DNA of 64,000 nt from Azolla caroliniana (lineage: Eukaryota; Plantae; Polypodiophyta), in assembly GCA_043228905.1 (NCBI GenBank), contig JBHGNT010000004.1:16802001-16866000 (forward strand), written 5' to 3'. Positions 1,078-57,110 of this stretch are shown here, piece after piece (the first letter of the stretch is position 1; each line of letters starts with the position of its first letter). A program made the translations under genes and the position numbers. Under the pieces are notes generated by a model that was not told the DNA's origin, ran no database searches, and saw nothing but the letters and a program-made list of their open reading frames with translations.

Positions 1078-1101
<24 letters not shown>
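1074..1101. repeat. (CA)n microsatellite
   Basis: Seen directly. Confidence 0.95.
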
Positions 1102-1103
<2 letters not shown>

Positions 1104-22937: not shown

Positions 22938-22977
<40 letters not shown>

Positions 22978-25043
22978 ACACAAGATGGGGGATGAGTAAG
23001 TATATTAAATTAGCATTATCGTCGTCATCATACAAAAATACCCACAATGAGGTATATATACATCTCATGTGCAAAGGTGCACATGTGTGAGTAGAATATA
23101 GGTACTAATGTGTAAGTCCTATATTAAATGTACTTAGGAGTGGAGGATCTAGAATATCCCACTTAAGTACAAGGTCCTATTTAAGGCGTTATAGTCAACA
23201 CTTCTAACTTGATTCTATCGAGGTAACTACGAAGTTACATTGTTGACTAACTAACTAAACTAAATTGAGCTTGATCTCTCAACATGCCCCCTCAAGCTCA
23301 AGTGTGAGGTGTTCGACATCCGCTTTGGCTTTTGTCGGCTTCGTGTGCTTCCGTACGGCCTTCGGCTTTCTTCGTCGTGGCAATCTCGGTTCCTCCCCCT
23401 CAAGCCGGTGACAAAGGCTTGTAGTGTGTGGGCGAAGGTTGACTACTTCCACCCATCGTGGGTTACGAGCTCGTAGGGAGTTAGCTCATGGACTCCATTA
23501 GTGGTGCACTGGTTCATGAGATAAACGGTCGTGGATGCCGCTTCGGCCCAATAGAAGTTCGACATGTGCTTCTCATGCATCATGGCGCGTGCTACCTCGA
23601 GTATTTGCCGATTCTTCCTTTCAGCTACTCCATTTTGTTGGGGTGTGTGTCGACACGAGAAATCTCTACGAATGCCTTCACTTTGGAGGTATGAGGTGAA
23701 TTCATCGGAGAAGTACTCCTTGCCTCGATCCGATCGTAGGCATCAAATGTGTCGACCGGTTTCTTTTTCGACTTGCCCCTTGAGCTTTTGGAAGTGGGAG
23801 AGCACTTCGCTTTTCTTCTTCATCGGGTAGATCCACGCGTAGCGCGAGTAGTCGTCGATAAAGGTTACGTAGTATCGACATCCGCTGATCGTCGGCGTTT
23901 GAGCCGGTATCGTGGAGAAAACCGCCCCCTAGGAGGAATCAAGAGGAACCGTGTATGAACCGGCCCTTACATGAGTGGGTGTGTGAATAGATCACTTGTA
24001 TATAATTATGAATAGGTCGGCTGATGTAAATATACTAGGTATGACATATTTATTAGGAAATATATGCGTATCTCTGTCCGAAGGGACAGAGAATAAAGTG
24101 ACATGACTGAGGGAGAACGCTCTCTCCTCGACGACCTATATAAGGGAAGGGAGAAGAGGACATAGGGTATCCTGGTTCTGCGAGGACGAAGTGCTGACGG
24201 ACTGGGTACCGAGCGGTCACTATTCCTCCTCCCATCATCCTCTGCGGGTTTCGGAGTTCGTTGCCTCTGCTTCGTGGATAGCTAGTGTGCTTCCGGCAGA
24301 GGCCCTCCCCCTTGCCCCCCCCCCCCCCCCCCCTTTTTCTTTTTGTGTTTTAGTGTTGGCGAGAGTCGTCGCCTATGTGTGTGCGGGGAACCCCGAGCTG
24401 GGTCTGTCACCACCTTGCCGGTTGTAATCATTATTGGCATTATAATCAAATCCTCTGTTTGTCTCTCTCCCTTTTTTTGTGTTTCAGCAAACGCTCTTTC
24501 TTCTCTCTCTCACGTTCCTTGGTTCAGGGCCCCCGTGGTTCCGTCTCTTTTCACGCACGAAAGCAAAGCAACACAACATAATTTGGTGAACCCGACGTGA
24601 AAGAGACGGCAAAGGTGTTGAAGATGAGGGGATTTGAGCTTGTTGAAGCTATGGCAGTAGCCGTTGACCGGCTAGTGAGCGCTCGTGAGGGAATAGGTAC
24701 CCTCGACAGAGCCATAGAATCGATCGTCAGCACCGTAGGCCGATTCGGTGGTAAGAACACCATGAGCTATTTGGAGGCCTATCGGGCCAAGATGATCATG
24801 AGGGACATCCCTGAAGACAAACGCCTGTCCGAATTCCCTCGAGTGGTGATGCCGAGAATCCATGCAGAGGTGCTCGAGGTGCTGGCCGGATGCCAGACAT
24901 GGGAGGTTTTCGGGGAGCGGCTCCTCGAAAGGTATGGGTTCGATGACTCGCTTCGACTGACGAAGCGGGACTTCATGGCATGGGTTGAAAACCATGGGAA
25001 GGGGAGGAGCACATTGGCGCTCCTCCAGGAATTCGAAACGCGG

Positions 25044-28000
25044 TATCGCGTAGTTACGCGCGTGCGTGTAGAAGGGCGGGACCACGTGGGTCTTGGACTA
25101 GGGAGTGGAGGAGAAAGATTAGCTCAAGGGGAGAAGAGAACGCCTATGACATTATGATAGAAGAAGAAGATGCAATCGAGATACTCAACAAGAAGTTCTA
25201 TTAAGAAATGAATGATTACAACAAATGGTGGCCGCCATGGCCGCACCAAACGACTACTCGAAACCCTAACCCTAACCCTAACGCTCGACCTACGTGGTAT
25301 ACCTCGCACACTCAAAATAGGCAACCCCCTCAATGGTGCCTTCTCTCTCCTTTTATAGCACAAGGAGGGAAGACCGCTTACAAAAGTGAGACTCAAATAT
25401 CCCCTTTCATTCAAAGGGGATATTTGCCTTGATTTGGGGGAGGGTGAGATTGATGGCCCCTTAACTCCCACCTCCTCACAAACAACTAGGTACCTATGTA
25501 CCGCATAGTACCTCTCTCTCTCTCTCTCTCGCGTGGATGTGCGTACAACCACATCACCTTTATACCTTTATTACTATTACAAATACGTTATTTATGTGTG
25601 CAACGTTGCACATCGCTCTTTGGCTCTCGTTGCTCGGGTTTCCGCTTGTGGACAAAAATCTTCACGACATTCGCCCCCACCTAACCGCACATCCTCCGGT
25701 ATGTGCCAAAACATAGGGGAGAGAACACGAGATTTTCGGCCACGACAACCGACCGAGTCCTTAGCGTCCTCGTGGGCCCGCCCGACTTTGTCTTCCACTT
25801 CGAGCAAGACCACCCCGTCCACACGAACCACCGCCGCCTTCCGGCCCACCATCCTCGCCGAATGGTCTCGAACCGTCGGCGCCATCCGATCCGCCACACT
25901 CGACGATGTTCGCCAAGTCGTTGCCTCCACCCGATCCGCCATGTCCACCATGGGTCCTTGAACCACCGAATACATCCGACCCGCCGTATTCGATGCCCGT
26001 GCTTTCCTCCCCATTCGGTCCTCCCGAACGACGTCGCCGACCCGGTTGCTCTTCCTTTGTCCGCCTCTTATATCCTCCGGATGCGCTCTCGGTTGCATGC
26101 TGGATTCCGCCCTCTGCGTGCCGCACACCTCGGCGTGCCGACTCTCTCCGCTCCACGCTTGCCTTCCGTAGGCTTTTCCCGTATGTCGATGTTGCCCTCC
26201 AAATGCGTGCTCGTGCTTTGGTCGTTCGATGACCCCATCACGCGTTTTTCGCTTTCCCCTTTTTCGCCGTGCTCTCTCGTAGTAGAGCGTATCGTCATCC
26301 CGACCTCCGTGTCGGTGTCCCTCGAGGCTCTCGTTATCGCCTCGCCTCGCCTTGCGCCCTCTTGGCCCGCTTGGCCTTGTATGCCCTCCGGGAAGCCGCC
26401 GCGCTTTCTCTTCCCGGTGTGTACCCCGTTGTTCTCCACGCATCTCCTCCGTTTCCCTAGATACGACTCTCCGCTCATGCCGATCGCGCTCGGCCCATGT
26501 CGTCGATCTTGGTGTTTCGCCGCACCGTCCTTCGTCCCGCGCTTGCCTCTCGAAGGTTTGACCCGACCGTCATCGTCGGTCAATCGTTGTCGCCCATCCG
26601 CCGTATGCATGCTTGTGTCTTGGCCCTCCACCGGCCGTATTGCATGCGTCTCACGTCGCCCTTCATCCGCCGTAGACCCGACCTCCGCGTCGGCCACTTA
26701 TTCCTTTGTCACCGTAGCCTGTTCCGACCCGAGCTCGCCATCTTGGACCCGCTCGTCCATCATCTCATACCGGATACCCGCTCCGATAACTTTGTCCGCT
26801 TCGGCCTCTGACTTCTCGCCGCCACCCGCCGTCTCTCCGGTCTCACGTTGATCCGCAACCGCCGAAGTCTCTAGAATGGGTGTGGAAGGTCCCTCTCGCT
26901 CTTGGTCTTCTAGCAAGCTGTGATCACCGTGCCCACTAGGCCTCCTTCTCGCTCTCACCGGCTCCCACCGTAACCGTACCAGGCCGGTTACGAATCGATC
27001 AAACAATCCCGGTCTTGCCGGCTTCCTTCGGCTCGTGCCCGGTTGACCGGTTCCCGCTTCACTCTTCTTCCGCTCAGCCTCCCGGTCGGGTTGGATTACC
27101 GACTGGCTCATCTTTCGGTTGGGTCGGTTCCCGACTCGCTCCTCGATGCCGCTCCGGATCTCTCCTTCGGTCTTTTCGCACGTGCCCACTACGGGCCTCT
27201 TATCCTCACGGCCACCGCCCATCTCCCCGGTCTTATGTCCGCGCTCGGGCGCAACCGCCGAAGTCTCCGGCCCCGGTGTTGAGGGATCTTGGCTCCGTCC
27301 GCTACAAACCTCCTCTTTGTCATTTCGGTTGCCCGCCTTGCCGCCGCCACTGTCCGTCTCTCTAGGTCTCACACCGGCTCTCGGGCCGGTTGCCGGAGTC
27401 TCTAGGTCCGGTGTGTGGAAGGTCGCGGCACCGCCGCTCGTCACCTTTTCTTCCTCGATTTCGCAAGCCTCGAGTATGCTCGCGAAATCCTCGTAGAACG
27501 TTTCGGGCAACCGCGTCCCGAAACTTTCGCCCACTCTCGAAGTGGCGTCCATTGCTCCGTAGATATCGGCCTCATCCATGGCCGTCCTCTTTCCACAAGT
27601 CGAGAGGGTCGCTTGCTTCGCACCCTCTCCCACATCGTCGCCGTGGTCGTCCGCCTTGCAGCCGCCACCGTTCATTACCCTAGGTCTTACGCGGGCACTC
27701 GGGCCGGCCGCTGGGGTCTCTTGAACCGGTGCGTGAAAGGTAGCAACGCCGCCGCTCGTCGATGCTATGCTCGTAGCCACCTCCATTCGGACATTGTCGT
27801 CCGTGGCTACCCCGCCTCCGTATATGCAAGCATCAATTATGCTTGCCGCCTCCTCTTCCACGGTCTCCTTACCGTTGTCTCGGTTGCCCGCCTTGCCGCC
27901 GCCACCGTCCGTCACTCCACGTCTCACACCGGCTCTCGGGTCGGTTGCCGGAGTCTCTAGGCCCGGTGTGCTTAAGGTCGCGGCACCGCCGCTTGTCTCC

Positions 28001-29437
28001 TCCCTGCTCGATGTTTCGAGCCTCCATGCCCGAACTCCCTCATGTCCGCTCGAATCGGCGATCGCCGCCTCACTGTCCCCGACCTCGTCCTCGGTCGATC
28101 TTTCTCCGCATGTCGAGAGGGTGGCTCGCTCCGCACCCTCTCCTGTGGTACCGATGTACCATTCTCTTTCGGCCTCCTCAACCTCCGATCGCCTCCGGCC
28201 CGACTCCATAATAAGCCCTTCTTCGGCTTCGATTTTCCCCTTTACAAGCTCGCATGCCTCCCGTATTAGCGCTTCTAGGTCGAGCTCCTCTGAACCGTTT
28301 TGTGTTGAGCTCTCTTCCGGCGGTAGTGCGTACCCACTCACCGCTCTCTCTTCTCCGCCGCTCGCGGGCCGTGTTGTGGCCGACCGCCTCGCATCATGTT
28401 GCCGGCACACCCACCGATCGAACTCATGTCGACCTCTTCCTTCTGGTTTCGTGTACCCGTACGCCTCCAATAGGGCTCCCTCAAAGGACTCCCATGACTC
28501 GTGAGCTTCTCGTAGCTCCTTGACGTCCTTGTGCACTGATACGGCCGCCACTCGCGGAAAATACTCTAGTCGCATCGCCTCGTCCACGCCCCCTTTCGCC
28601 ATCTCGGCCTTGTAGGCTCCCAAAAATTTTGGGACCTCACTCCCATTGAACCGGCCGACTCGATCGACCTCCGTTTCGACGGCTTGTTGAGCCGCATCTC
28701 GCTTCGCCATCTTCCGTCTGGCTTCTATCACGATTTTTGCCATCATCTCCTCGAAGTCGAAGTCTTCTTCCATCTCCATGCTCCCTTGCCGCCCTTCACG
28801 TCGGTTCACCAAAGATGTCGCGTAGTTACGCGCATGCGTGTAGAAGGGTTGGACCACGGGGGTCTTGGACTAGGGAGTGGAGGAGAAAGATTAGCTCAAG
28901 GGGAGAAGAGAACGCCTATGACATTATGATAGAAGAAGAAGATGCAATCGAGATACTCAACAAGAAGTTCTATTAAGAAGTGAATGATTACAACAAATGG
29001 TGGCTGCCATGGCCGCACCAAACGACTACTCGAAACCCTAACCCTAACCCTAATGCTCGACCTACGTGGTATACCTCGCACACTCAAAATAGGCAACCCC
29101 CTCAATGGCGCCTTCTCTTTCCTTCTCGCACAAGGAGGGAAGACCGCTTACAAAAGTGAGACTCAAATATCCCCTTTCATTCAAAGGTGATATTTGCCTT
29201 GATTTGGGGGAGGGTGAGATTGATGGCCCCTTAACTCCCACCTCCTCACAAACAACTAGGTACCTATGTACCGCATAGTACCTCTCTCTCTCTCTCTCTC
29301 GTGGATGTGCGTACAACCACATCACCTTTATACCTTTATTACTATTACAAATACGTTATGTACGTGTGCAACGTTGCACATCGCTCTTTGGCTCTCGTTG
29401 CTCGGGTTTCCGCTTGTGGACGAAAATCTTCACGACA
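25044..29437 (-). mobile_element. Non-autonomous LTR element D (Trp PBS, gag fragment plus long novel ORF, no pol)
   Basis: LTRs 25044-25669 and 28816-29437. PBS reverse complement TCACGTCGGTTCACCA at ~28796-28811, PPT 25670-25686, TSD GCGG/ACGG within the gag of C. Confidence 0.9.
26068..28779 (-). CDS. Gag-N-terminus fused to a long acidic, internally repetitive protein of unknown function (one in-frame stop at 26698-26700)
   Basis: ORFs 26698-28857 and 26068-26697 are in the same frame and abut. The N-terminus RVGRFNGSEVPKFLGAYKAEM resembles the gag of C, F and G. Repeats of the type TSGGAAT..TPxLETPATxPRAGVR follow. Confidence 0.55.
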
Positions 29438-30853
29438 ACGGTTCGCGCGGTTGTCGGCGTTGGATCGAACCGTGCTCGATACGAGCCGGGTATTGCTGTT
29501 CGTCAAAGCGGTTGATGCATTGGAAAGAGAGAAGGTAGGTCTCTTGTTGGAGACCGATGAAGGGCTCACAACTAACTAGGCCGTGGTTAAAGGAGTCTGC
29601 AGCCGTTTCGACAAACGGCGAGAATGGAGTGACGAAGGGCCATCGACAGCGAGGCCCGTCTCGGCAAGGCAGTTCGAGGAGCCTTCGCCGGCATGAAAAG
29701 AAGAAAACCGAAACTGGCTTGAGACGGGGTCGGCGTCAAGCGGTGCGGTCAAAGGTCCCTCCGGAGGAGCAGCGCTGGAGGAGTTGACGCAAATGGTACG
29801 CGACCTCCAGATCGCGCAAGCACGACGGGACAACGGTGACCAACCTCGCGACTGAAGACCACCGGCAAGATAGCAATGCATATGGTGCGACGCAGTCGGC
29901 CATGCCCGGGGAGACTGCACGGATTTCGCAAATGCGCTCAGAACTAACACATTGTACCTCTGGAATGGGCGGGTGCACGCTAGGAAGACTCGGAGAGCCC
30001 TAGAATTGAATACCGGGCGTGGAGGAATGAAGAGGCTGATGGAAGAGGCCGCCGCGCGTCACACTGACGCCGTGAATTATGTGGCATCGGTAGGAATCCG
30101 GGTCGGGGGCAACGAAGAACAGAGGGCAAGCCACGCCGGGTTCTGGCTATTAGCGTTGGAAGGCCTCTTCGGAGTCCGGATAAAGAAGGAAGAAACGGAC
30201 CGCGCGGAGCAGCGGATTCGAGAGGTCACCGGGTGGGCCGACCCAGTCGAAGAAAAGTCTGGCTTCGTAGAACTATGAGGTTCTGGTAGAAGACAAGCGC
30301 GTGGGAAAGGCTGGAGGGGCCGGTCCCCCGCAATGGTACGACACCCGGTTTGGCCCGAAAAAGAGTTGTTACCGGCCGACAAAGGAGTCCAGAGTGGGAA
30401 ACGGAGAGCTAATTAAGTAGTAGGAATGTGGTTGTAATTAAGCTATGAGTGTGGACGGACGGACCGGAAACGGTATGCCGTTCCGGATCCGGACCGATCC
30501 CGAACAGGTGCGGATGGCACCGTTTTGTAATACTGACCGGAAACCTATTTAAAGGCCCGGATACAATGTAATAGTTAGCGGTTAATTAATGAAAGCTTAA
30601 GCGTTGTTATCTCTCTGTGTTAATTGTCGTTCTGTCTTAATTGTTATATCTTACGCGTGTTATGAAAGACGATCCTAATAAGTAACTTAATTAAGTCGGA
30701 TTAAGCGTTGAAGTCTAATCCGGTTGCCGTAACACCCTTTGGTGAAGTGTCTCCCGTAGACACCCTGTGTTAGGCCATTGTCTGGCCCGAAGAGTTAACA
30801 CAGTTTTTGGCGACCACGATTCCTGTTTTTGCAACGAACGACGGCACGGATGG

Positions 30854-39214: not shown

Positions 39215-40271
39215 TAGTTAGCGGTTAATTAATGAAAGCTTAAGCGTTGTTATCTCTCTGTGTTAATTGCCGTTCTGTCTTAATTGTTATATCTTACGCG
39301 TGTTATGAAAAACGATCCTAATAAGTAACTTAATTAAGTCGGATTAAGCGTTGAAGTCTAATCTGGTTGCCGTAACACCCTTTGCTGAAGTGTCTCCCGT
39401 AGACACCCTGTGTTAGGCCATTGTTCGGCCCAAAGAGTTAACAAGACTGACGCCGGCAATTATGGCATACCGGACAAGGCCAAGCCTACTGGGTACCAAC
39501 TGAGCACCAAGATAGAAAGAACGACGAACCTACGAAAGGTCCTCGAAGAGCGGATCCTCGATAGCAAGGTGGAGTTGTCGTTGAGGGAGGTGCTTGGAAT
39601 CGCCAAGAAGGAGTTCCACTACTCCAGTCTGGACTTGGTGAAGCGCAAACGGCTCTCCACGGAACCGGAGCCGGAGAAGCCCGTGGACGTGTGGACTATG
39701 CACTTAGAGGATGTGGCCCTGGAGGACGAGTTGGCGGAAAGCCATTGTTCTAAATTACACTAGGCTAGAGCCACTACTGAGACTCTTGTCCGGATCGGGG
39801 ATGTGCAAGAGCCGGTAGTGGCGCTTATAGACCATGGATCCGAGATCAATCTGATGTCCATGGACTTTTACAAAAAGGGGAAATGGCCGATCAACACCAA
39901 ACAGGCTGGAAGATACGCACGACGACCCGCGCAATGCAGGAGCTGCACGGGGCGTGCCCGAACGTATGCGTGAAGATCGGCGACGTTGAGATAGACCAAC
40001 ACTTTTTTGTCCAAGAAACGTCCTCACACCTAGTGATACTCGACGAACTATACATCACGGCAACACGCATGGAGACAAAGGTGCTCGACAACGGCTCGGC
40101 ATACGCGCGCGTGAAGAGTCAAAACGGTAAGGCCGAATTTCTGACCGTAAGGCCGAATCATGAGCGTAACCGCGAGACTCTCGGCGGCGACAACTGAGGG
40201 GATTTTTAAAGAGGGCTATCAAGGCGTGGGGCCGCGATAGTCCGGAAGCGCTGGAGAAACCCCACACCTAT

Positions 40272-43200: not shown

Positions 43201-46200
43201 CATAGACGAGTTCGCGGAGGCCTTCGTTGAAAGGTCGATGTCTTCTGTCGGTGATCTGTACTCGGGGTACGATCAGTTCCAACTAGCCGTGGAGAGCAGA
43301 GACATTACGACGATGCGGACTCCTCTCGGCCTAGTGCGGATGTGTACCCTGCCACCAGGAGGGACGAACTCAGTGGCTCACATGGTGAACGCGATGAACA
43401 AAGTGCTCAGGGATTGTATCCCAGACATCACCATGCCGTTCTAAGACGACATCCCGATCAAGGGATGCCCGGTGGAGAAAAGGGATGAGGCAATCGGGCC
43501 GGACGGATGTCGGAATTTCGTGGTGTCCCACATCGATGATTGCGAGAAGGTGCTGTAGAGACTAGAGCGTGCGAGGCTCACCTTCTCTGGGGAAAAATCG
43601 GCCTTCGGACATTCGGAGATCTTGGTGGTCAGACACCTATGCAGGCCTTACGGTAGGAAACCGTCTCCGGCAAAGGTAGAGGCCATCTCCGCGATGAGGA
43701 ACGTTTGCGGGTCGGTCACGGAGGTCCGCAAATTCTTGGGGGCATGCGCGTTCTACCACATCTGGATCCCGCACTACGCACATGTCGCGGAACCCCTCTA
43801 CGGACTATTGAAAAAGGGGCGTAGCTTTGAGTGGAGGACGGAGCACACGGAGTCAGTTCGAAGACTAAAGGAGGCGCTTACGGCAGCGCGGGCTCTCCGT
43901 AAAGCGGTTTGCGGCAAGGATGTTCCCATCTGCGTAACGGTGGACACCAACCCGACCGGGATCGGGTGGGTAATCAGTCAGGAGGACAAGGGCGGCGTAC
44001 GATTCCCGATCTGGTTCGGGGCGAAGGTATTGAGCGAGCGGCAGTGAGGGTACGCCCAAGTTAAGCGCGAACTTTGGGATGTCATTTCGGCAGTCAAGGC
44101 CGACAAGGATTATCTGATCGAGACGGAGGTGATTATCGAGAAGGACTGCCTGCCGGATGCGCGACACCGGACCTAGCAATGCTCCGGTAGATAGCGTACA
44201 TTAAGTCCCTGAACCCGGAGATACGGCACATCTCCAGAAAGGACAATGCCATGGCCGACATGCTTTCGAGGGCAAGGTTCAACGACAAAGACGGCATGGT
44301 TTCGGAAGACGAAGAAGTCGGCGAGGACTTCTTCGGGTCGGCTAACGTAACGACGAGGAAATGGAACACTCCGGCGCTTAACGAATTTGACGAAAGCAGG
44401 TACGACGGGGAGTGGCTCCAAATCGGGAGGTTCCTACGGACGCTGACGCCGGACGCAGCATGGGCGAGAGAGGAGGCGAGCAGGATATGGAGGAAGGCGT
44501 ATCGATTCTTCCTGCGGCACGGGTGCATATGGAAGCACCCAAAGAAGAGAAGCGGCATCCCACTCCGAGTAGTGGCAAAGAAAGAAGAACAGGGGAGACT
44601 ATTGGCGGCATTCCACGAGAGCCCATGGGCCGGACACCGCGGAACGTGGGCCACGTTCGAGAAGCTGAAGGAGAAGTACTAGTGGCCGAGGCTATACCAG
44701 GACGTGCATCGGTTCGTAACGACTTGCGAAAGCTGTCAGATACACTCCGTAGTCTGACACCGGGACGAGCTACACCCGACCTTCCCGCCTACGGTCCATT
44801 TCAAGTGGATGGTGGACTTGGTGACGATGCCTATGGGGGTAGGATAGATGTGATACCTGGTGCTTGCACGGGAAGACTTAACGAACCAGGTGGAAGGCCG
44901 TGCACTGCAAAGCAAGACAACCGCGGCGGTATGCCGGTTCCTGATCGAAGAAGTAGTGTGTCGGTACGGGTGCGTCGGGAGGATCGTGGTGGACCGGGGA
45001 GAGCTGGATGCACGGGAGGCCGAGGAGTTGTTCGACCAACTAGGCGTCAAACTCTCCCTCACCACGGCGTACAATCCGGAGGCGAACAGAAAGGTGGAAC
45101 GTGGGCACGGACCGATTGTAAAGGCGTTGGAGCGTGCATGCGGTGGGCAGGTCGGGAATTGGCCTCGACTCCTTCCTTACGCGCTATGGGCGGACCGGAC
45201 TACGCACAGTTCGGTGACAGGGTTTATGCTGGCGGAGCTAATGTACGGACAAAAGCCGATCATGCCGGTGGAACGGACGATTTCTTCGTGGGCGGCGGTA
45301 GATTGGAAGGACGAAATGAGCCGGGAGGAGTTGCTGGCGGCGCAGATTCGGCAACTCGAGCGGAGGCCGGAGGACGTGATACAGGCGAAGGAAAAGCTGC
45401 GAGCGGCAAGGGAGCGGAACAAGACCCGGTTCAACTGGACGCATTGGTTGCGACCAAAGAAGATCGAGGAAGGCGACTGGGTCTTGGTATACGACAGCAA
45501 CCTCGACAATCAGCACAAGGCGGTGTGAAAGTTTGCTAGGAGATGGTTCGGGCCATACATGGTGACGAGCACGAACGACAACGGCACGTACCACCTCGCG
45601 GAACTCGACGGGACACGGTTAGTGGTGATGGTGGCCGGAAAGCGGATCAAAGCTTTCAAAAAGCAGTTCGAAGATGAGTCGGAGCCTGCGAGCGGGAGCG
45701 ACAACAACGATCAGTTCGGGTTCGGCGGAGAATCGGAGAGCAACGAGTGAGGCCAGGTTTCTTCGATATCTACTCATCTCTGGCGCATACCGGTGGATGC
45801 GCGGTTTGGTGGGGGTGGATGTCGTGAAGAAAACCGGCCATAGGAGGAATCAGAGAGAAAGCGCGTAAACGGGCCCTTATATGGATGGACGCGTGACTTG
45901 TTATTTGTACACGAACCGGTGGATGTAAATACTAAGCCGCACGCATTTATTAGGGGAGGGAATTGTGCGTATCCCGGTCAGAGGGACAGGGAATAAAGGG
46001 AAGAGGACAAGGGAAAACGGGTATCTCGTGTTGGGAAAGGAAAAGGGGTTGCTGCAGAAGGGAAGGAGGGAGCTCTCTCTCTTCGACTCGAATCGTTGCT
46101 CTCTGCGGGTGTCGGGAGGTCGCTGCCTCTGCTTCGTGGACAGCCCGTGTGCTTCCAGCAGAGTCGCTCCCTTTCCCCTTTTGTTTCTTTGAGTCGTGTG

Positions 46201-46421
46201 ACTATTGTCGGTGTGCGTGAGTAGGGTCCCCGTGTCGGGTCCGTCGCCGCTTTGTCGGTTGTAACTGTCGGAGTTTGTAATCTCTTGTCATTATAATTAA
46301 GTGTTACGTTCTATATCTCTCTTTCTTGCTTTGACGGGTCGGTGAATCTCTCTCTCTCTCCTCGGTCCAAGACCCCCGTGGTCCCGCCCCTTTCTACACG
46401 TACGCGCGTAACAACGTGACA
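40272..46421 (+). mobile_element. Ty3/gypsy element F (same family as C/G; 5' LTR and PBS deleted), inserted in the integrase of C
   Basis: Gag restarts at ~40272; gag-PR ends 42284 and a decayed pol runs to ~45750. PPT then 3' LTR 45820-46421 (TGTCGT..GTGACA). The right flank ACGC resumes the integrase of C (DAQEAELFDRLG). Confidence 0.85.
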
Positions 46422-49214
46422 ACGCGCAGGAAGCTGAGTTATTTGACCGACTAGGGGTCAAACTCTCCCTCACTACGACGTAAAATCCGGAGGCAAACGA
46501 GAAAGTGGAACGTGGCCACGGGCCCATTGTGAAGGCATTAGTACGTGCATGCGAAGGACAGGTCGGGAATTGGTCGCGGCTCCTTCCTTACACGTTATGG
46601 GTGGATCAGACTACGCAAAGTTCGGTGACGGGGTTCATGCTAGCGAAGCTGATGTATGGGCAAAAACCGATCATGCCGATGGAGAAAACAATCACTTCGT
46701 GGGTCGCGATGGATTGGGGGGACGAGATGAGCCGGGAGGAGCTATTGGTGGTGCGAATCCGGCAACTTGAGCGAAGACCGGAAGACGTGGAGCGGGCGAA
46801 GAAGAAGCTGCGTACATCACGAGAAAGAAACAAAGGTCGGTTCAACCATACGCATCGACTGAGGCCGAGGAAGATCGAGGAGGGTGACTAGGTGCTGGCA
46901 TACGGCAACAGCCTCGACAATCAGCACAAGGCAGTGTGTAAGTTTGCGAGGAGATGGTTCGGGCCCTATACGGTAACGAGCACGAACGACAACGGCACAT
47001 ATCATCTCGCGGAGCTCGACGAGACACGAATGGCGGTGCCTGTAGCAGGAAAAAGGGTCAAGGTATTCAAGAAGCGGCAAGAGGAAGAGCCAGACCCGGA
47101 ATGCGCCATTGACGACGATGACCGGCTTGAAATGAATGATGATTCGGGCAGCGACGGGTGATGGCGGGCCGGTTTTCTCCGGCAAGCGTTGTATCTGGCG
47201 CGTACCGGTGGACGCATGGTTTAGTGGGGGTGGATGTTGTGGAGAAACCGCCCCCTAGGAGGAATCAAGAGGAACCGTGTATGAACCGGCCCTTACATGA
47301 GTGGGCGTGTGAATAGATCACTTGTATATAATTATGAATAGGTTGGTTGATGTAAATATACTAGGTATGACATATTTATTAGGAAATCTATGTGTATCTC
47401 TGTCCGAAGGGACAGAGAATAAAGTGACATGACTGAGGGAGAACGCTCTCTCCTCGACGACCTATATAAGGGAAGGGAGAAGAGGACATAGGGTATCGTG
47501 GTTCTGTGAGGACGAAGTGCTAACAGACTGGGTACCGAGCGGTCACTATTCCTCCTCCCATCATCCTCTGCGGGTTTCGGAGTTCGTTGCCTCTGCTTCG
47601 TGGATAGCCCGTGTGCTTCTAGCAGAGGCCCTCCCCTTGCCTCCCCCCCCTTTTTCTTTTTGCGTTTCAATATTGGCATGGTTTGCCTATGTGTGTGCGT
47701 GGAACCCCGAGCTAGGTCTGTCACTGGCTTGCCAGTTGTAATCGTTATTGGCATTATAATCGAATCTTCTGTTTGTCTCTCTCCCTTTTTCTGTGTTTCA
47801 GCAAACGCTCTTTCTTCTCTCTCTCACGTTCCTTGGTTCAGGGCCCCCGCGGTCCTGTCTCTTTTCACGTGCGAAAGTGAAGCAACACGACACTGGTCCC
47901 CATACATCCGAGTGTATGACGTCGAGGAGGCATTTGCTCGTGTGGCTCTCCTTCGGGAATGGGAGTCGATGTTGTTTGCCGAGTTGACATGCTTCGCATA
48001 CTCGGTTGACTCGTTTCGACTCAAATGCCGGAAGTCCGATGACGACTCCCTTCGTTTGCATCGCTCGAAGTTGTTGGAGGTTTATGTGGCCGATTCTCTT
48101 GTGCCACAACTCGATGCTTGTCTCGGTTTTGAGACCGTTAGCGTACATTGCCGATTTCACCTCGTTCGAATCAAGGATGAACATTCGGCCGTCTCTCTTA
48201 CATTCTTGATGCAAGTTTGCTCGCCTTCTTTCCTGAATGGGACATTGCCGATGTGCCGAATGGGGTGTGTGGTGTCATCTCCCGTCTCTATGAAGCGAGG
48301 TCGATCTGGCATTCGTAAATCACGAAACCACTCTTCGCGAGATGTCATGTGATGTGAGGCGCTGGAGTTGACGAACTACACGTCTCCCGAGTTGAAGGTG
48401 CTTGCAGAGTTGGAGGTCATCATAGAGTTCACTCTATGCCTCATTACGAACATTCCGCCATGGTCTCCGTAGTTGGAATTTGATGCGTGATTCGTGAACA
48501 TTACGCTACGATTGTCGTAGTCGGAGTTCGATGTGTAGTTTGTGAGTTGTCGACTTGTTGATGACGACTCACTTCTCTTTTTCCGACACTCCGCTCATAA
48601 TGGCCGATTTTGCCACAATAATTGCAAGTTGCGGGCCTCGTTTGCCGACCATGTTCGGCGTGGAAGCTCCCCCTAGTTCCGAAGGTTCCTTGATGGCTTC
48701 CGTGAAGGTTTGAGTTCCCTTCGTGTGATGGGTCAAATTGACCTCTTCTACCGCCGTGACCTTGTCCTTGGCCACCATCCGAGCTTGAGAAGAACATTTG
48801 GTCTTCCGACTTCTTCATCTTGGTTTGGACATGTTTCTCTTCGACCAATAGCATTGATTGGAGGTCGAAGAATGAAGGAGGGTTTTCTCTTGCCAAGATT
48901 GCCGTCTGTAATGGATCAAATCGTTGTGCGAGGCCGCCTAAGCATACTTGAACCATCTCGTCTTCATCGACATTTATGTTGATGGAGCCAAGTGAGTCGC
49001 AAATGTTCTTGATCTTGGTGGTGTAGTCCGACACGGACATGTCTTTTTGTCGAATGTTATTCAACCCTTGTCGGAGTCGAAGCTTTCGGGCGGTTGTGTT
49101 GGTGGCGAACATTTTCTTTAAGTTCGCCCACGCTGTCGTAGTGTAGGTTGCACACTATGTGGAAATTATATTTTTGTCCCTCCGGATAGAGAATGGAGTG
49201 CTCGGTGAGAACCG

Positions 49215-49365
49215 GAAGAAAACGGCATACCGGCAAGAAGGAAGAAAACGGCATACCGGCAAGGAGGGAAAACGGCATACCGGCAAGAAGGAGGGAAAAC
49301 GGCATACCGGCAAGGAGGAAAAACGGCATACCGGCAAGGAAGAAAACGGCATACCGGCAAGGAAG
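49215..49365 (+). repeat. Six tandem 25-28-bp units (GAAAACGGCATACCGGCAAG...) in the U3 of the G LTR (copy at ~55761-55911)
   Basis: Seen directly in both LTRs. Confidence 0.92.
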
Positions 49366-50050
49366 AGCCGGATAAAGAGACATAAATGTAAAAAGAAAGG
49401 AAATACTCACTACTGCGCAGGGCGTGATTCGAACTCTGCACCTCCACGTTGACAAACCCCAACCTTACCATTACATTAACTTATCTTAAGTGTTTTAAAT
49501 ATAGATTTAATACGTATAAGACCTTTATTTATGCATACCTTTATTAAAAGGTAAATCGTGTATTTTTTTAATATATGAAAAAGAAAAACGCGAGACACTA
49601 AAAATAACTCATGCACATCTAGCGTGCATGAGCCCTATACTTAGGAAATAAAAAAGCATCACATGCACATTTTAGTGGACATGAACACTAAAAAAAAAGC
49701 ATGAAGCCATGCTTAGCTCTTCCTTCCTTATATAAGGAGGAGAGAAATATGTAAAGGGTTGTTGATTATTTGGATTAAGTATTAATTAATACAAAAATTA
49801 TTCGTGGGATTCACGATTTATACGTCTACTTCTCTCTTAACACCCTAAGTACCAATTAATATAGTATACTCGTGTGATTCACGAGTTTCTTATATTTCTC
49901 TTCGTTATTTATTCATAATTAATCTCTATCTCACGAACTTCTTTCTCCTAGTCCAAGACCTCTGTGGTTCCCACCCGACTCACGCAACGATCCGGAGCCG
50001 AAAGGCACGACACAGTTGGTGAACCCGACGTGAAGACGGGTGGCAAGGAG

Positions 50051-52090
50051 ATGGAGGCTCAACAAGCTCACAATATGATGGCGATGTTCGAACGGATGCT
50101 TCAAGAACAACGCACGATGTCGGAGATTTCGGCATCAGTAGAGCGGCTCGTGCAACGCAACGGGCAATTTAATGGTAAGGATGTGTCGCGATATTTGCAG
50201 GACTACAAGGCGGAGATGCTCCGGTGCCGGGCTTCGGAAGGACTGCAAGTGACATCCTTTAACCGGGTGGCGACCGACGGGCTTCAAGGGAGTATCCACG
50301 GGTTGCAACAACAAAATCCGACGTGGGAAGCATTCGAAGGGGCGTTAAAGACCACGTTTGCCATCGAGGACTCCTCCAAGGCAACGCGGAGGGGATTCGA
50401 GGATTGGGTGGAAACGTCAGGTAAGGGGCTGAAGGTCCTCGAAGTGTTTTCGACATTCGAAAGTCGGTTCGGGAGGTTGTCCACGAGAGATCAAACTATT
50501 CTTGCACCGGACAAAGTCATCATGTTTTTGCGAGCTGTGGACGTCCGGGACCGGAAAGATCTCGGAGTGCTTCTTGAGGACACGACCACCGAAAGCGGCC
50601 TCACCGAAACATGGGAAAGCGTGCGGGATATCGTCGCGCGGTACACGAAGAGGGGGCAATGGCTTGCCAACGAAGAAAAGAGGGTTTCGGAACCGATTCC
50701 GAAACCGAGAACGGGACTGGAAGACCATCAACCGAGGGCTCGGGAGATTACGGCCGAGAAGGGAGTCGACGCGTCTACGGTGGAGCAGCTGCTGAAGGAG
50801 ATGGAGAATCTAAAGATCGCGATGGTGAAGAAGTCGGATGATCGCCCCACAAGCTCCAAATATACGGATCGACGGTGCATATGGTGCGATAGCGCCGAAC
50901 ACGATCGGAGGGATTGCGACGACCATAAGGAGGCGCTACGACGGGATCTCATCTACTACGAGGGAAACCGGATTCATTCGATGGACTCTCGAAAGCCACT
51001 CCGACCGAACTTCCGGAAAGGCGGCATGAAGAAGGTGCTCGAGGAGGAGTTAGCGGCAAGAAGCAACTATGCGACAACCGCGGGAATATGTGTCGGGGAG
51101 TCAACGGGAGCGAAGGCGTCTTTCTGGCCGGAGGTGCTAGGAAACACCGAGAAAACCGACTCCAACGATATCCGAAACACCGCGGAAGGCGTCCGGGAAG
51201 CTACGGGATGGGAGTGCCCTGTCGACAAGAATAGCATATACGCCCTGTGTCAATTACATGAGGTGTATGTGGACGAGAAACGACGGCGCACGGAGGATGC
51301 GGCCGGACCATCGAAGATACCGGAAAGTTGGAACTCCGGAGGTAAGGGAAAAGAAAAGGCGACTCCGGCATTCAAGCTCGCCTCGGACATAGAACAACAA
51401 ACCGACTTGAAAAGAGTGTTCGAGGAAAGAATCTTGGATAGCCGGGTCGATTTTTCGCTGCGGGAACTACTCGGAATAGCGAAGAAGGAGTTTCACGATC
51501 TTCTCGTGGATCTCGTGAAAAGGAAGAGACAAAGTACGGAGGAAAATGCTCCAAGGGTGAATGCAAATACCGTTTCAATGAACGACACCGAAGTGGAAGG
51601 CGAAATTCCGAACTCCCACTATACAAGGCCACACTGGGCACGTGCGACTACGGAGACTCCGGTCCGAATCGGCAACATCAAAGAACCCGTGCTAGCATTG
51701 ATTGATCACGGATCGGAGATCAACTTGATGTCCAAGGAGTTCTACCGAAAGGGGAAGTGGCCTATAAACACCAACCATGGATGGAAGATTCGGGCAGCCA
51801 CGAAAACGACAGAAGACCTATTTGCGGCTTGTCCGGATGTGACGGTAAAGATCGGGGATGTAGAAATTGACCAAAATTTCTTTGTGCAGGATGAGGTTTC
51901 ACATGCTGTCATCCTCGGCCAACCCTTTATCACGGCTTCACGGATGGAGACGAAGGTGCTCGATAGTGGTGCGGCTTTTGCGCGAATTCGGAGCCAAAAC
52001 GGAGGGAAATCCGTCCAATTCCTAACGGTGCCGGCAAATCACGAAAGGAACAAGAGGGAACTCTTGTCCCAAGTGAGAATGGATTTTTAA
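50051..52090 (+). CDS. gag: Gag-protease of G
   Basis: Uninterrupted ORF with zinc knuckle CIWCDSAEHDRRDC and aspartic protease ALIDHGSEINLM. Confidence 0.9.
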   Translation: MEAQQAHNMMAMFERMLQEQRTMSEISASVERLVQRNGQFNGKDVSRYLQDYKAEMLRCRASEGLQVTSFNRVATDGLQGSIHGLQQQNPTWEAFEGALKTTFAIEDSSKATRRGFEDWVETSGKGLKVLEVFSTFESRFGRLSTRDQTILAPDKVIMFLRAVDVRDRKDLGVLLEDTTTESGLTETWESVRDIVARYTKRGQWLANEEKRVSEPIPKPRTGLEDHQPRAREITAEKGVDASTVEQLLKEMENLKIAMVKKSDDRPTSSKYTDRRCIWCDSAEHDRRDCDDHKEALRRDLIYYEGNRIHSMDSRKPLRPNFRKGGMKKVLEEELAARSNYATTAGICVGESTGAKASFWPEVLGNTEKTDSNDIRNTAEGVREATGWECPVDKNSIYALCQLHEVYVDEKRRRTEDAAGPSKIPESWNSGGKGKEKATPAFKLASDIEQQTDLKRVFEERILDSRVDFSLRELLGIAKKEFHDLLVDLVKRKRQSTEENAPRVNANTVSMNDTEVEGEIPNSHYTRPHWARATTETPVRIGNIKEPVLALIDHGSEINLMSKEFYRKGKWPINTNHGWKIRAATKTTEDLFAACPDVTVKIGDVEIDQNFFVQDEVSHAVILGQPFITASRMETKVLDSGAAFARIRSQNGGKSVQFLTVPANHERNKRELLSQVRMDF

Positions 52091-55000
52091 AGCGGACTGT
52101 TGCGGAGTGGGGAAGTGATAGTCCGAGAAGCCCTGATACCCCACACAGGAAGAAAACTCTCGGAGCAAAACAAGTACGAATCGGGCCGGATGGGGCATCT
52201 ACGTACACGGTCGTAACCGGAGGAATGAAGAAACAATACCGACAAGTGGAGGATAAGTTACGGTCGGCATCAATAATAAAAGAAGACGAAGAAATCGTGG
52301 GAGTGATCGAGGAAGTGTTCTATGGGAATACACTACAACGGCTTGAAGAGCTTGCGGAAGATAAAAGCCAAGGGAACCGGGTAGTCCCGGTGGAATCGGT
52401 CGAGATGTACGAGATCGTTGCGAAAATGGGGCCGGATGCGCTCCGCAAAGAAGAAGCAATGGTAAGTACGAAATACAAGACCGTGGAGAAGAAGGTAAAA
52501 CCGGCCGCGGGACCACTACCCGCCGATAGCGAACAAAAGAGGAAAGAAGTCTCGGGAGATCCGACACTTCGGAAGACCGTGGATATCGGACATGCCTTCA
52601 CAGATGAGACCCGGAAGAAACTTCGGATCGGTGGAGGTGGGTTCCTCTTACAAGAAGAAGAAAAACGGTTTCGAGAGATGTTGGAGCAACATGGCAAAGC
52701 ATTCGCGTTCACATCGAGGGAGATCGGATGCATTGATCCAAAGATAGTGGAGCCGATGGTGATTTTCACGATTGATCATGTACCGTGGAACCTGAAGCCG
52801 ATTCCGGTGCCACGGGCGCATATTCCGAAAGTCATCGACTTGCTCAAGGAGAAGGTGGCGATGGGGATTCTAGAGCCATCAAGTGCTCCGTACTCAAATC
52901 GATGGTTTACGGTTCCGAAGAAGAATGGGTCACTCCGATTCATCCAAGACTTGCAACCGGTGAACAAGGTCACGATCCGGAACTCGGGAGTCGGTCCGAT
53001 AGTGGACGAATTCGCGGAAGCTTTTGCCGGACGTGCGATATACTCCATCGGGGACCTATACTCGGGGTATGACCAATTCCAACTAGCCGTGGAGAGCCGA
53101 GACATCACTACCATGCGGACACCGATAGGACTAGTTCGAATGTGCACACTACCACAAGGAGCGACAAACTCGGTTGCACATATGATGAACGCGATGAACA
53201 AGGTGCTTCGAGATTGCATCCCGGAGATAACGATGCCGTTTCTAGATGACATTCCGATGAAAGGATGCGCGGTGGAAGAAAAAGATGAGACTATGGATGA
53301 TCGGGGATGCCGAAAGTTCGTGGTCGACCATATTCATGATTGCGAGAAAGTGTTGCGAAAGCTAGAAGATGTGCACCTAACACTTTCCGGGGAGAAATCG
53401 GCATTCGGGCAAGAAGAAATATTGGTGGTCGGACATCTATGTGGACCCTACGGCCGAAGACCGTCACCAACAAAGATCGATGCGATTCAAGCTATGAAGG
53501 AAGTATGTGAGTCAACATCGGAAGTCCGAAGGTTTCTGGGTGCGTGTGCATTCTATCACATATGGATTCCGCACTATGCACATATAGCGGACCCGCTCTA
53601 TCACTTGTTGCGGAAAGGTAAGAAATTCGAGTGGAAACCGGAACACACTAAAGCCATGAGGAAGCTCAAGAAGACACTATGGAGGGCGGAATCACTTAAG
53701 AAGCCAAGCTACGAGCGGCCAATCATAGTAACGGTTGATACAAGTCCAACCGGTATCGGGTGGGTCATCAATCAAGCCGACTCGGATGGTTCGCGGTATC
53801 CGATCCGATTTGGAGCAAAGGTCCTCAACGAAAGGCAACGCGGATATGCACAAGTCAAAAGAGAGTTGTGGGGAGTCGTGTCGGCGATAAAATCGGATCG
53901 GGATTATTTGATCGGAGCTGAAGTGGTGATCGAGACGGATTGTCTTCCGATACTCGGGATGATGCGGTGTTGTACGATACCGGATGTGGCTATGCTAAGG
54001 TGGATTGCATATGTCAAGTCACTTAATCCGGAGGTTCGACACATCTCGGGGAAGGACAACGCGGTAGCGGACATGTTATCGAGGGCGCGGTTTGAAGACG
54101 ACATAACCGAATCAGATAATGAAGAAGTTTCCGAAGACTACTTCACGTCAGAACACATATGCCGAGTGAACGTGATCCGAGAATTCCGGGAAGAAGAATA
54201 CGAGGGGGAAACCTTGATGATCGGGAAGATGCTACAAGAGGTCGAGGATTCATCCAATGATAAAGAAAGGAGAGCCGAGATCCGAAGGAAGAAGAGGCAA
54301 GTCCAAAAGTTCTTCTTGGAAAACGGTTTAATATGGAGGACGCCGAAAAGACCGGATGGGATACCACTTCGAGTAGTCGGGACGAACGAGCAACGAAACC
54401 GGATAATGTCCGAGTTCCACGAATCCGATTGGGCTGGACATCGAGGAACATGGGCAACTTTTGTGAAAATCAAGCAAAGGTATTGGTGGAAGAACATGTA
54501 TAAAGATGTCGCGGAGTTCACAGAAAGCTGCGAGAAATGCCAAGTCTACTCCGGGGTCCGACACCGAGATGAGCTGCATCCAACATTCTCACCGACAATC
54601 AACTTCAAGTGGATGGTCGACATTGTAGCTATGCCAACCGGGATTGGACAAAAGAAATACTTGGTGTTAGCTCGAGAAGATCTCACAAACCAAGTTGAAG
54701 GTCGAGCGCTTCGGAGGAAAACGTGTGCCGCGGTGTGCCAATTTCTTTTGGAAGAAGTGTTTTGTAGGTACGGCTGCGTAGGACAAGTGATTGCGGACCG
54801 GGGAGAACTCGACTCGGACAAAGCTAGGGGATTCTTCGCCAAACATGGAGTTCGGTTAACGTTGACAACGGCCTACAATCCGGAGGCCAACGGGAAGATC
54901 GAACGAGGACATAGTCCGATCGTGAAAGCACTTGCGAAGGCATGCGACGGAAGGGTGAAGGATTGGCCACAAATGCTTCCGTATGCACTATGGGCGGATC

Positions 55001-55692
55001 GGACGACGCATAGCTCCGTGACCGGTTACATGCCGGCAGAACTCATGACCGGACAAGCACCGGTAATGCCAACGGAAACCGCAATCGCGACATGGACAAT
55101 ACTACCGTGGAAGGAAGAGATGAGCCGGGAAGAACTACTAGCGGTCCGGATACGACAACTGGAGGGAAGACCGAAAGATGTAGCGGAAGCGTCACGCCGA
55201 CAACAAGAAGCACGGTTCCGGAACAAAAGCCGGTTCGACACAAAGCACCGACTACGACCGAGGAGGATTGAAGAAGGAGATTGGGTGATCGTCTATGATA
55301 GTAGCTTGGACCATCAACATACAACGATGCGGAAATTCGCGAAAAGGTGGTTCGGGCCGTACGAGGTTCGGAAGGTCTTCGACAACGGGACGTACCGACT
55401 GTCCGAGTTGGATGGAACAATACTACGAGTGCCTATAGCCGGGAAGCGGGTGAAGATTTTCAAGAAGCGGACCGACGACAAACCTTATGTGATCCAAGTC
55501 GAGGTCGACAACGAGGAGCAATCGGACGAAGACCACAATGATGCGGGAAGCGAAGAAAGTGGATTACAACTCATAGTCGACATAAGGGGAGATTCGGAGG
55601 AAGCTTCGGATGAAGACGGATACGAAGAATCAAGAACTTCGGCACATACCGGAGGATGTGCGGGTTTGGAGGGGGCGAGTGTCGTAGTGTAG
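52081..55692 (+). CDS. pol: Pol (RT-RNase H-integrase) of G, in the -1 frame
   Basis: Open frame from 52081. Motifs DLYSGYDQFQL, LPQGATNS, FLDD, VDTS, an HHCC region, WMVDIV, YNPEANGKIER and WFGPY; no chromodomain. Confidence 0.92.
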   Translation, partial: GFLKRTVAEWGSDSPRSPDTPHRKKTLGAKQVRIGPDGASTYTVVTGGMKKQYRQVEDKLRSASIIKEDEEIVGVIEEVFYGNTLQRLEELAEDKSQGNRVVPVESVEMYEIVAKMGPDALRKEEAMVSTKYKTVEKKVKPAAGPLPADSEQKRKEVSGDPTLRKTVDIGHAFTDETRKKLRIGGGGFLLQEEEKRFREMLEQHGKAFAFTSREIGCIDPKIVEPMVIFTIDHVPWNLKPIPVPRAHIPKVIDLLKEKVAMGILEPSSAPYSNRWFTVPKKNGSLRFIQDLQPVNKVTIRNSGVGPIVDEFAEAFAGRAIYSIGDLYSGYDQFQLAVESRDITTMRTPIGLVRMCTLPQGATNSVAHMMNAMNKVLRDCIPEITMPFLDDIPMKGCAVEEKDETMDDRGCRKFVVDHIHDCEKVLRKLEDVHLTLSGEKSAFGQEEILVVGHLCGPYGRRPSPTKIDAIQAMKEVCESTSEVRRFLGACAFYHIWIPHYAHIADPLYHLLRKGKKFEWKPEHTKAMRKLKKTLWRAESLKKPSYERPIIVTVDTSPTGIGWVINQADSDGSRYPIRFGAKVLNERQRGYAQVKRELWGVVSAIKSDRDYLIGAEVVIETDCLPILGMMRCCTIPDVAMLRWIAYVKSLNPEVRHISGKDNAVADMLSRARFEDDITESDNEEVSEDYFTSEHICRVNVIREFREEEYEGETLMIGKMLQEVEDSSNDKERRAEIRRKKRQVQKFFLENGLIWRTPKRPDGIPLRVVGTNEQRNRIMSEFHESDWAGHRGTWATFVKIKQRYWWKNMYKDVAEFTESCEKCQVYSGVRHRDELHPTFSPTINFKWMVDIVAMPTGIGQKKYLVLAREDLTNQVEGRALRRKTCAAVCQFLLEEVFCRYGCVGQVIADRGELDSDKARGFFAKHGVRLTLTTAYNPEANGKIERGHSPIVKALAKACDGRVKDWPQMLPYALWADRTTHSSVTGYMPAELMTGQAPVMPTETAIATWTILPWKEEMSREELLAVRIRQLEGRPKDVAEASRRQQEARFRNKSRFDTKHRLRPRRIEEGDWVIVYDSSLDHQHTTMRKFAKRWFGPYEVRKVFDNGTYRLSELDGTILRVPIAGKRVKIFKKRTDDKPYVIQVEVDNEEQSDEDHNDAGSEESGLQLIVDIRGDSEEASDEDGYEESRTSAHTGGCAGLEGASVVV

Positions 55693-57110
55693 GTTGCACA
55701 CTATGTGGAAATTATATTTTTGTCCCTCCGGATAGAGAATGGAGTGCTCGGTGAGAACCGGAAGAAAACGGCATACCGGCAAGAAGGAAGAAAACGGCAT
55801 ACCGGCAAGGAGGGAAAACGGCATACCGGCAAGAAGGAGGGAAAACGGCATACCGGCAAGGAGGAAAAACGGCATACCGGCAAGGAAGAAAACGGCATAC
55901 CGGCAAGGAAGAGCCGGATAAAGAGACATAAATGTAAAAAGAAAGGAAATACTCACTACTGCGCAGGGCGTGATTCGAACTCTGCACCTCCACGTTGACA
56001 AACCCCAACCTTACCATTACATTAACTTATCTTAAGTGTTTTAAATATAGATTTAATACGTATAAGACCTTTATTTATGCATACCTTTATTAAAAGGTAA
56101 ATCGTGTATTTTTTTAATATATGAAAAAGAAAAACGCGAGACACTAAAAATAACTCATGCACATCTAGCGTGCATGAGCCCTATACTTAGGAAATAAAAA
56201 AGCATCACATGCACATTTTAGTGGACATGAACACTAAAAAAAAAGCATGAAGCCATGCTTAGCTCTTCCTTCCTTATATAAGGAGGAGAGAAATATGTAA
56301 AGGGTTGTTGATTATTTGGATTAAGTATTAATTAATACAAAAATTATTCGTGGGATTCACGATTTATACGTCTACTTCTCTCTTAACACCCTAAGTACCA
56401 ATTAATATAGTATACTCGTGTGATTCACGAGTTTCTTATCTTTCTCTTCGTTATTTATTCATAATTAATCTCTATCTCACGAACTTCTTTCTCCTAGTCC
56501 AAGACCTCTGTGGTTCCCACCCGACTCACGCAACGATCCGGAGCCGAAAGGCACGACAACGCCTCTTTGGGCATCTTGGCGTCTCGAATGTGGCTAAGCA
56601 TGCGATCGTGGACACATGTTGCCAAGCAATACATGACTCGACTAGCCGCTTGCTCCCATGTTGCGTAGTCGGCGTTATTTGAGTCGGGTCAATTTTCTTG
56701 AGCGTCGTTGATGTAGCTCCAATACCCTTGGCCGACGAAGTATTGGGTCATCTTGTACTCCCAAGATGAATAATTGCTCCGGTCTAGGTTTTCACTAGGG
56801 AGCGAGCTACCCATTTGTGTATTCATGTTGATTGTAATGTCTTCTCTTCTTTTGCTTTTCTTCCTTCGATCACGTACACGTGCTACGTAGCGGCACTACG
56901 GTAGCCGATAGCCGGATTTTGTCGTCGGCATCTCGAACACACAATCACGGAGTCGGGTGGGCTTAGTGGATTTTCTAAACCACACGCTCTGATACCATGT
57001 TAAGAATTAGGAGATTAATTAAGCAAGGGTTAATTAGTACCTAATTATGTGATTAGTTTATAAGCGGAAGATTAAGTGATATATGTGTGTATGTGTGTGA
57101 GAGGAAGAGA

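What the first reader, a model, noticed from the sequence alone, without database searches (positions are those of the whole stretch)
23904..56562. tRNA-Trp-primed gypsy family with 4-bp TSDs always centred on CpG (possible CpG-directed integrase)
Seen: C has TSD CCGG/CTGG, D has GCGG/ACGG, G has ACGC/ACGC, and the surviving flank of F is ACGC, so all four are NCGN. The 4-bp length is confirmed for C, D and G because removing one copy restores the host reading frame (VWGPAQ, EFETRFAR, KEAWAN). C, D and G have a PBS complementary to the tRNA-Trp 3' end; termini are TGTCG..CGACA-like and the integrase has no chromodomain. The other LTR elements here make 5-bp TSDs without CpG. Established: most plant LTR elements make 5-bp TSDs with weak sequence preference. 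Inference: this integrase may select CpG (perhaps methylated) sites, a chromodomain-free way to land in other transposons and avoid genes. n=4 in CpG-rich hosts is only suggestive.
Basis: partly seen in the sequence, partly recalled or inferred. Interest (0 to 1): 0.78.

Follow-up and report, generated by a model that had tools for sequence, protein, structure and literature searches.

The report
Phygy-type retrotransposons inserting at CG sites
These plant jumping genes really do insert at four-base sites with CG in the middle, but that habit is already published for the moss lineage Phygy, to which they likely belong; only the mechanism (likely direct reading of CG by the integrase, with no test yet of DNA methylation) remains open.

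Summary
C, D and G have 4-bp target duplications (CCGG/CTGG, GCGG/ACGG, ACGC/ACGC), F's one surviving flank is ACGC, and only a 4-bp removal restores each host frame. The preference also holds beyond n=4. In public runs, G-type LTR ends whose flank begins AC continue with G in 77 of 89, 74 of 85 and 92 of 104 contigs. In metagenome contigs, 15 of 16 primer-linked LTR starts are NCGN, against 4.8% local CpG.

Neumann et al. 2019 (REXdb) define Phygy as 4-bp TSD (100%, NCGN), tRNA-Trp primer (81%), no extra domain. The window's elements match these features, and TatI is disfavoured because no aRH domain was found. No tree against labelled Phygy sequences was possible. The four elements are separate families of one lineage, with relatives in Riccia, Calypogeia and Adiantum; the host is likely a fern.

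Likely mechanism: a PFV/Ty3-fold integrase cuts 4 bp apart across a bendable CG step and reads it. Methyl-CpG reading and gene avoidance are untested.

The parts
23904..23907 (+). C left TSD CCGG
23908..24578 (+). C 5' LTR (671 bp; 93.8% identical to its 3' LTR)
24584..24600 (+). C primer-binding site (tRNA-Trp type, identity recalled)
25040..25043 (+). D left TSD GCGG
25044..29437 (-). Element D, nested in C gag: LTRs 25044-25669 and 28816-29437 (97.4% identical), primer site ending at 28811, one 723-codon frame whose first ~110 aa are 32% like G gag, no pol found; likely non-autonomous
29438..29441 (+). D right TSD ACGG
40267..46421 (+). Element F: decayed gag-pol, purine tract and 3' LTR 45820-46421; 5' LTR absent
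46422..46425 (+). F surviving flank ACGC, inside C's integrase
47235..47892 (+). C 3' LTR
47893..47896 (+). C right TSD CTGG
49130..49133 (+). G left TSD ACGC
49134..50012 (+). G 5' LTR (879 bp, 1 mismatch to the 3' LTR), ends TGTCG..CGACA
50017..50033 (+). G primer-binding site
50051..52090 (+). G gag-protease frame (DUF4100; weak aspartyl protease hits), overlapping pol at a GGATTTTTA run also seen in C and F (frameshift site, inferred)
51967..55692 (+). G pol frame, 1241 codons without a stop: RT, RNase H, integrase; no aRH or chromodomain match
54334..55500 (+). G integrase: H2C2, core, SH3-like C-terminal part; model pLDDT 86.6, folds like PFV and Ty3 integrases
55680..56558 (+). G 3' LTR, preceded by a purine tract
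56559..56562 (+). G right TSD ACGC

Best explanation
C, D, F and G are four families of one tRNA-primed, chromodomain-free Ty3/gypsy lineage that inserts at 4-bp NCGN sites, likely REXdb's Phygy, and the integrase itself likely picks the CG as plain sequence. Shown: 4-bp stagger, central CG in and beyond the window, shared primer site and ends, PFV/Ty3-like integrase fold, no chromodomain or aRH match. Inferred: as in other 4-bp integrases the target is kinked at its central step, which favours a bendable pyrimidine-purine step, and extra base contacts narrow this to CG. Candidate contacts are the conserved core motif at the PFV Ala188 position (Glu158, 80% conserved among the relatives aligned there) and the conserved C-terminal loop (Gln328-His329, Lys334-Phe335). 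Nesting in other elements would follow passively, because element interiors here hold 7-9% CpG against 1.2% in the first 13.6 kb.
For: Window TSDs and frames. G-type 3' ends in three runs of three studies: flanks starting AC go on with G in 77 of 89, 74 of 85 and 92 of 104 contigs, against P(G|C) of 0.07-0.37 in window DNA. Mixed-flank consensus starts ACGT in 86 and 63 contigs of one sample. Metagenome contigs: 15 of 16 primer-linked LTR starts not preceded by a purine tract are NCGN, 16 of 19 before the distance filter, background 4.8%. CG is chosen even in flanks with 1.2% CpG: 2 of 3 such flanks are NCGN, the third ATGG. REXdb Phygy row: 186 elements, 4 bp 100% NCGN, tRNA-Trp 81%, no extra domain. 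Central YR preference of 4-bp integrases and the Ala188/Arg329 contacts (PMC4422553). The Drosophila ZAM integrase binds its CGCGCg site directly in vitro (PMC2527525). Fold match to PFV (E 2e-22) and Ty3 (TM 0.77).
Against: No labelled Phygy sequence was available, so clade membership was not tested by tree. G (7,425 bp) is just below Phygy's 7,656-9,968 bp range. YR bending gives only about 63% enrichment in retroviruses, far weaker than here, and the extra contacts are only guessed from alignment. ZAM's site alone is not enough for cleavage in vitro. About 12-13% of AC-starting flanks are not followed by G; their commonest letter is A in all three runs, which fits later CpG decay but was not proven. 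Contigs are not insertions, and the row for flanks with A followed by a letter other than C was not shown.
Confidence: 0.8

Rival explanations
1. The integrase or a partner prefers methylated CpG, which steers insertions into silenced repeats.
For: All 4 window insertions lie in other LTR elements. Outside flanks average 4.8% CpG against 1.2% in window 1-13,600. Target CGs decay in a way that fits methylation (CTGG, ATGG, ACA). Phygy is reported enriched at liverwort centromeres (PMC12885004 passages) and often nested in Tcn1 in moss (PMC6911290 passages).
Against: Decay could follow insertion. No methyl-binding or chromodomain family matched. A CG-containing target is recognised by the ZAM integrase on synthetic oligonucleotides. 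Only 6 of 21 outside flanks were recognisably LTR-element DNA and one had a weak PPR-like frame. The window is a transposon nest, so its 4 of 4 nesting is biased.
Confidence: 0.12
2. The elements belong to a different lineage (TatI, or an unnamed sister of Phygy) that shares the primer and the 4-bp TSD.
For: TatI also has 4-bp TSDs and tRNA-Trp (4 elements). Phygy was defined from Physcomitrella alone, and no hit named as a moss appeared in three protein searches.
Against: TatI carries aRH in 100% of elements; none matched in G's pol, in its N-terminal 311 codons or in the RH-INT linker. NCGN is listed only for Phygy. The window's other non-chromovirus, E, is only 26% identical in RT and sits on a long separate branch.
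Confidence: 0.07
3. Chance in CpG-rich hosts.
For: Hosts hold 7-9% CpG and n=4 in the window.
Against: P about 8e-4 after allowing any dinucleotide; outside data give P below 1e-14.
Confidence: 0.01

Closest known systems
Phygy, non-chromovirus Ty3/gypsy lineage (REXdb; Neumann et al. 2019, PMC6317226; passages and the whole of supplementary file 3 seen)
   Same: 4-bp TSD with NCGN, tRNA-Trp-type primer site, no chromodomain, no aRH, no extra ORF, coding region filling the interior.
   Different: Described as specific to Physcomitrella. The host here is likely a fern or another non-seed plant. G is about 230 bp below the size range. G shows two overlapping frames (REXdb: not determined). D is a likely non-autonomous form.
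TatI (REXdb)
   Same: 4-bp TSD, tRNA-Trp primer.
   Different: TatI has aRH and no NCGN note; no aRH matched here.
ZAM subgroup errantiviruses of Drosophila (PMC2527525, PMC5408687; passages seen)
   Same: Gypsy integrase with a CG-containing palindromic target (CGCG, CGCGCg) that the integrase binds directly.
   Different: Longer motif, animal host, three ORFs and AGT-type ends; here two fixed bases and TG..CA ends.
PFV and other 4-bp-TSD intasomes (PMC4422553; abstract, section 6, passages seen); Ty3 intasome 7Q5B
   Same: Integrase fold, 4-bp stagger with central YR in PFV.
   Different: Their YR preference is weak and not limited to CG.

Membership tests
Phygy | Ty3/gypsy order GAG-PR-RT-RH-INT between LTRs | tested here: met
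Phygy | 4-bp TSD | tested here: met
Phygy | NCGN target motif | tested here: met
Phygy | tRNA-Trp primer-binding site | tested here: inconclusive
   Site present in C, G and (minus one base) D; assignment to tRNA-Trp is recalled, and no tRNA-Trp gene was found
Phygy | No chromodomain, aRH or extra ORF | tested here: met
   (G)
Phygy | Length 7,656-9,968 bp (range of 186 moss elements) | tested here: inconclusive
   G is 7,425 bp, 3% under the range; the paper calls size a weak classifier
Phygy | RT/RH/INT fall in the Phygy clade | not testable with these tools
   No labelled REXdb sequence held; the RT tree shows only grouping with Riccia and Adiantum proteins
TatI | aRH domain | tested here: not met
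   No RNase H match besides the Ty3-type one
Chromoviruses (Tcn1, Galadriel and others) | Chromodomain at the integrase C-terminus | tested here: not met
Selgy | tRNA-Ala primer, 4.4-6.7 kb | tested here: not met
   G 7.4 kb with a different (Trp-type, recalled) primer site

The most novel reading that the evidence does not exclude
Phygy-type integrases read methylated CpG directly, a chromodomain-free way for a plant retrotransposon to target silenced DNA, conserved across mosses, liverworts and ferns.
Probability: 0.12. Interest if true: 0.75.

Novelty: new member of a known kind. Interest (0 to 1): 0.2.

Why it matters
The headline is in print as one sentence and one table row (one search found NCGN with LTR retrotransposon in that paper only). 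What this adds is modest: the same strict CG choice in several families of a likely fern host and its relatives, a lineage wider than one moss, and named candidate residues. I found no study of the mechanism or of methylation dependence in searches (open-access library only). A methyl-CpG-reading integrase would be a new targeting route, but nothing here shows it.

Tried and rejected
No genome is held, so no genome-wide TSD logo; read contigs and metagenome loci stood in.

Inverted-repeat calling of LTR starts was noisy. Five further starts picked by eye from it (L034, L055, L066, L071, L078; all NCGN) are left out of the 15 of 16 count.

In one search, of 24 motif matches 5 were dropped as following a purine tract, leaving 19 (16 NCGN). 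Three of these had no primer site 400-1300 bases downstream: L025 TGAC (116-kb contig with no match to the window), L085 TAGA (an LTR end read backwards), L045 ACGC. L051 may be a rearranged 3' region; without it the count is 14 of 15. Only 80 of 120 loci had long flanks, from 26 of 64 parts of the collection, and most are 65-90% like the window, so they are likely related species. LTR 3' ends in those loci were few: 4 without a primer site, 2 NCGN and 2 that look like 5' LTRs with a decayed primer site.

Three protein searches and a cluster look-up gave no labelled moss sequence. The single-sequence fold failed (pLDDT 32.8); the alignment-based fold worked. The C-terminal part alone matched no solved structure by sequence. 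Rfam, ARAGORN and a viral-contig scan gave no tRNA-Trp to confirm the primer. No Pfam match above its cut-off among 19 frames of window 1-13,600, so no host gene to name the organism. PMC7466625 and PMC3276498 passages added nothing on NCGN. Read depth was not used as copy number.

Full report
Anatomy. A self-comparison of the window and Pfam scans resolve a nest of LTR elements. A minus-strand copia element (B, 22841-58603) holds C (23908-47892) and G (49134-56558). C holds D (25044-29437, minus strand), E (30367-39443) and the 3' part of F (about 40267-46421). G has unbroken gag and pol frames: 879-bp LTRs with one mismatch, a gag-protease frame with DUF4100, and a 1241-codon pol frame with RT, RNase H and integrase. 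No whole genome is held.

Observation. Among removals of 3-6 bases only 4 keeps each host frame. A, B and E have 5-bp flanks without CG, each with one mismatch. With host CpG at 7.3% and 8.6%, four of four has a chance of 4e-5, or about 8e-4 allowing any dinucleotide at any of three places. The four elements share the primer site, G-rich purine tracts and TGTCG..CGACA-like ends, but they are distinct families (55-61% identity in pol between G and F or C).

Beyond the window. Twenty public runs hold G; one of them may be the window's source. On G's 5' LTR end, contigs that leave the reference give a mixed consensus starting ACGT (86 and 63 contigs, two runs of one sample). On the 3' end, where the reference continues ACGC, contigs that follow through AC go on with G in 77 of 89, 74 of 85 and 92 of 104 cases in three runs of three studies; the rest mostly go on with A, as CpG decay would give. 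In window DNA, G follows C in 7% (first 13.6 kb) to 37% (element interiors) of cases. These are contigs, not counted insertions, and 77 rows were not shown. A scan of metagenome contigs for the primer site gave 120 loci, mostly related families. Of 16 family-type LTR starts lying 400-1300 bases upstream of a primer site and not after a purine tract, 15 are preceded by NCGN and one by ATGG, against 4.8% CpG in the flanks (16 of 19 without the distance filter). The outer two bases vary.

What is known. Neumann et al. [quoted passage not shown] Their table gives Phygy 186 elements, 4 bp (100%, NCGN), 7,656-9,968 bp, tRNA-Trp 81%, no extra domain. TatI shares the 4-bp TSD and tRNA-Trp but carries aRH, which G does not match. 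Jedlicka et al. also report GC-rich centres in 4-bp TSDs and Phygy nested in Tcn1 in moss (PMC6911290, passages). Phygy is reported in the liverwort Apopellia, enriched at centromeres (PMC12885004, passages). Named relatives of G's pol come from Riccia (up to about 60% over most of the length), Adiantum and Calypogeia. In an RT tree of 65 rows, G and F fall in a 12-row group with two Adiantum proteins and one Riccia protein (support 90/85, below the tool's strong mark); element A was left out for too short a match. The host is therefore likely a fern or another non-seed plant; unchecked notes of this scan also say fern. No labelled Phygy sequence was available, so clade membership rests on features and not on a tree.

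Mechanism. An alignment-based model of the integrase (pLDDT 86.6) matches PFV (E 2e-22) and Ty3 (TM 0.77) intasome chains. In retroviruses with 4-bp TSDs the target is bent at its central step, YR steps are favoured by about 63%, and PFV Ala188 and Arg329 touch bases near the site (PMC4422553, abstract, section 6 and passages). CG is a YR step, but the preference here is far stricter, so extra contacts are inferred. By alignment Glu158 of G's integrase sits at the Ala188 position, in a D-R-G-E motif kept at 99/95/96/80% among those of the 120 top relatives that align there; a C-terminal loop with Gln328, His329, Lys334 and Phe335 is 95-99% kept. That this loop matches the PFV Arg329 loop is my recollection, not a call result. 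ZAM shows that a gypsy integrase can bind a CG-containing target directly (PMC2527525, PMC5408687, passages). I put direct reading at about 0.8 and methyl-CpG reading at about 0.12.

Targeting of transposons. Of 21 outside flanks examined, 6 were recognisably LTR-element DNA, 2 more possibly repeats, 1 had a weak PPR-like frame, and the rest were unassigned; 3 had only 1.2% CpG. A plain CG requirement would already favour element interiors about six- to sevenfold over DNA like window 1-13,600. Gene avoidance was not testable.

Verdict. A real and correctly described feature, now supported well beyond four cases, but already published for Phygy. New members in a likely new host group; the mechanism remains open. 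Interest 0.2.

Noticed in passing
window 23908-24578 / 47235-47892 versus 22960-23284 / 58279-58603: C's LTRs differ by 6.2% (41 of 658; 14 at CpG), while the compared part of its host B's LTRs differs by 2.8% (9 of 325): the inner element looks older than the outer one. Faster decay of a CpG-richer LTR, conversion or a chimera are possible.
   Followed up: partly
window 25044-29437 (-): D looks non-autonomous: LTRs, primer site, a gag-like start and a long low-complexity 723-codon frame with internal repeats and no Pfam match; its LTR holds CCCTAA-type telomere-like repeats. Similar elements occur in the metagenome loci.
   Followed up: partly
window 39444-40300: C's protease region runs straight into F's gag; F's 5' LTR and most of C's pol are missing, likely a deletion or recombination.
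   Followed up: no
window 52081-52089, 42275-42283, 40200-40208: The same GGATTTTTA run sits at the gag-pol overlap in G, F and C: a likely programmed frameshift site (REXdb lists Phygy's organisation as not determined).
   Followed up: partly
window 30367-39443: Element E, a distant non-chromovirus gypsy (RT 26% identical to G) with long frames after the integrase that match no Pfam family; its 3' LTR lacks about 130 bases at the start and has no purine tract before it. Its primer site looks like tRNA-Arg (recalled). It may relate to the tract-less families in this scan's earlier notes.
   Followed up: no
window 13654-20015: Chromodomain-bearing gypsy element A with a Met-type primer site; its left flank resembles a purine tract, so it may be part of a tandem.
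   Followed up: no
window 49218-49367: G's LTR holds an array of short repeats built on AAAACGGCATACCGGCAAG.
   Followed up: no
L008, L018, L023, L047, L052, L062, L074: AT-rich contigs carry the same primer-site sequence, six after TGTAAACA-type ends and L074 after CCTACA, with no DNA match to the window: likely an unrelated LTR group using the same tRNA.
   Followed up: no
L015:1-12351, L045, L070: LTRs flanked by both a purine tract and a primer site: tandem elements sharing an LTR, or collapsed assemblies.
   Followed up: no
P0486: One gag relative with DUF4100 is labelled as from the chytrid Quaeritorhiza (24% identity, 1.4-kb contig): a fungal link or contamination.
   Followed up: no
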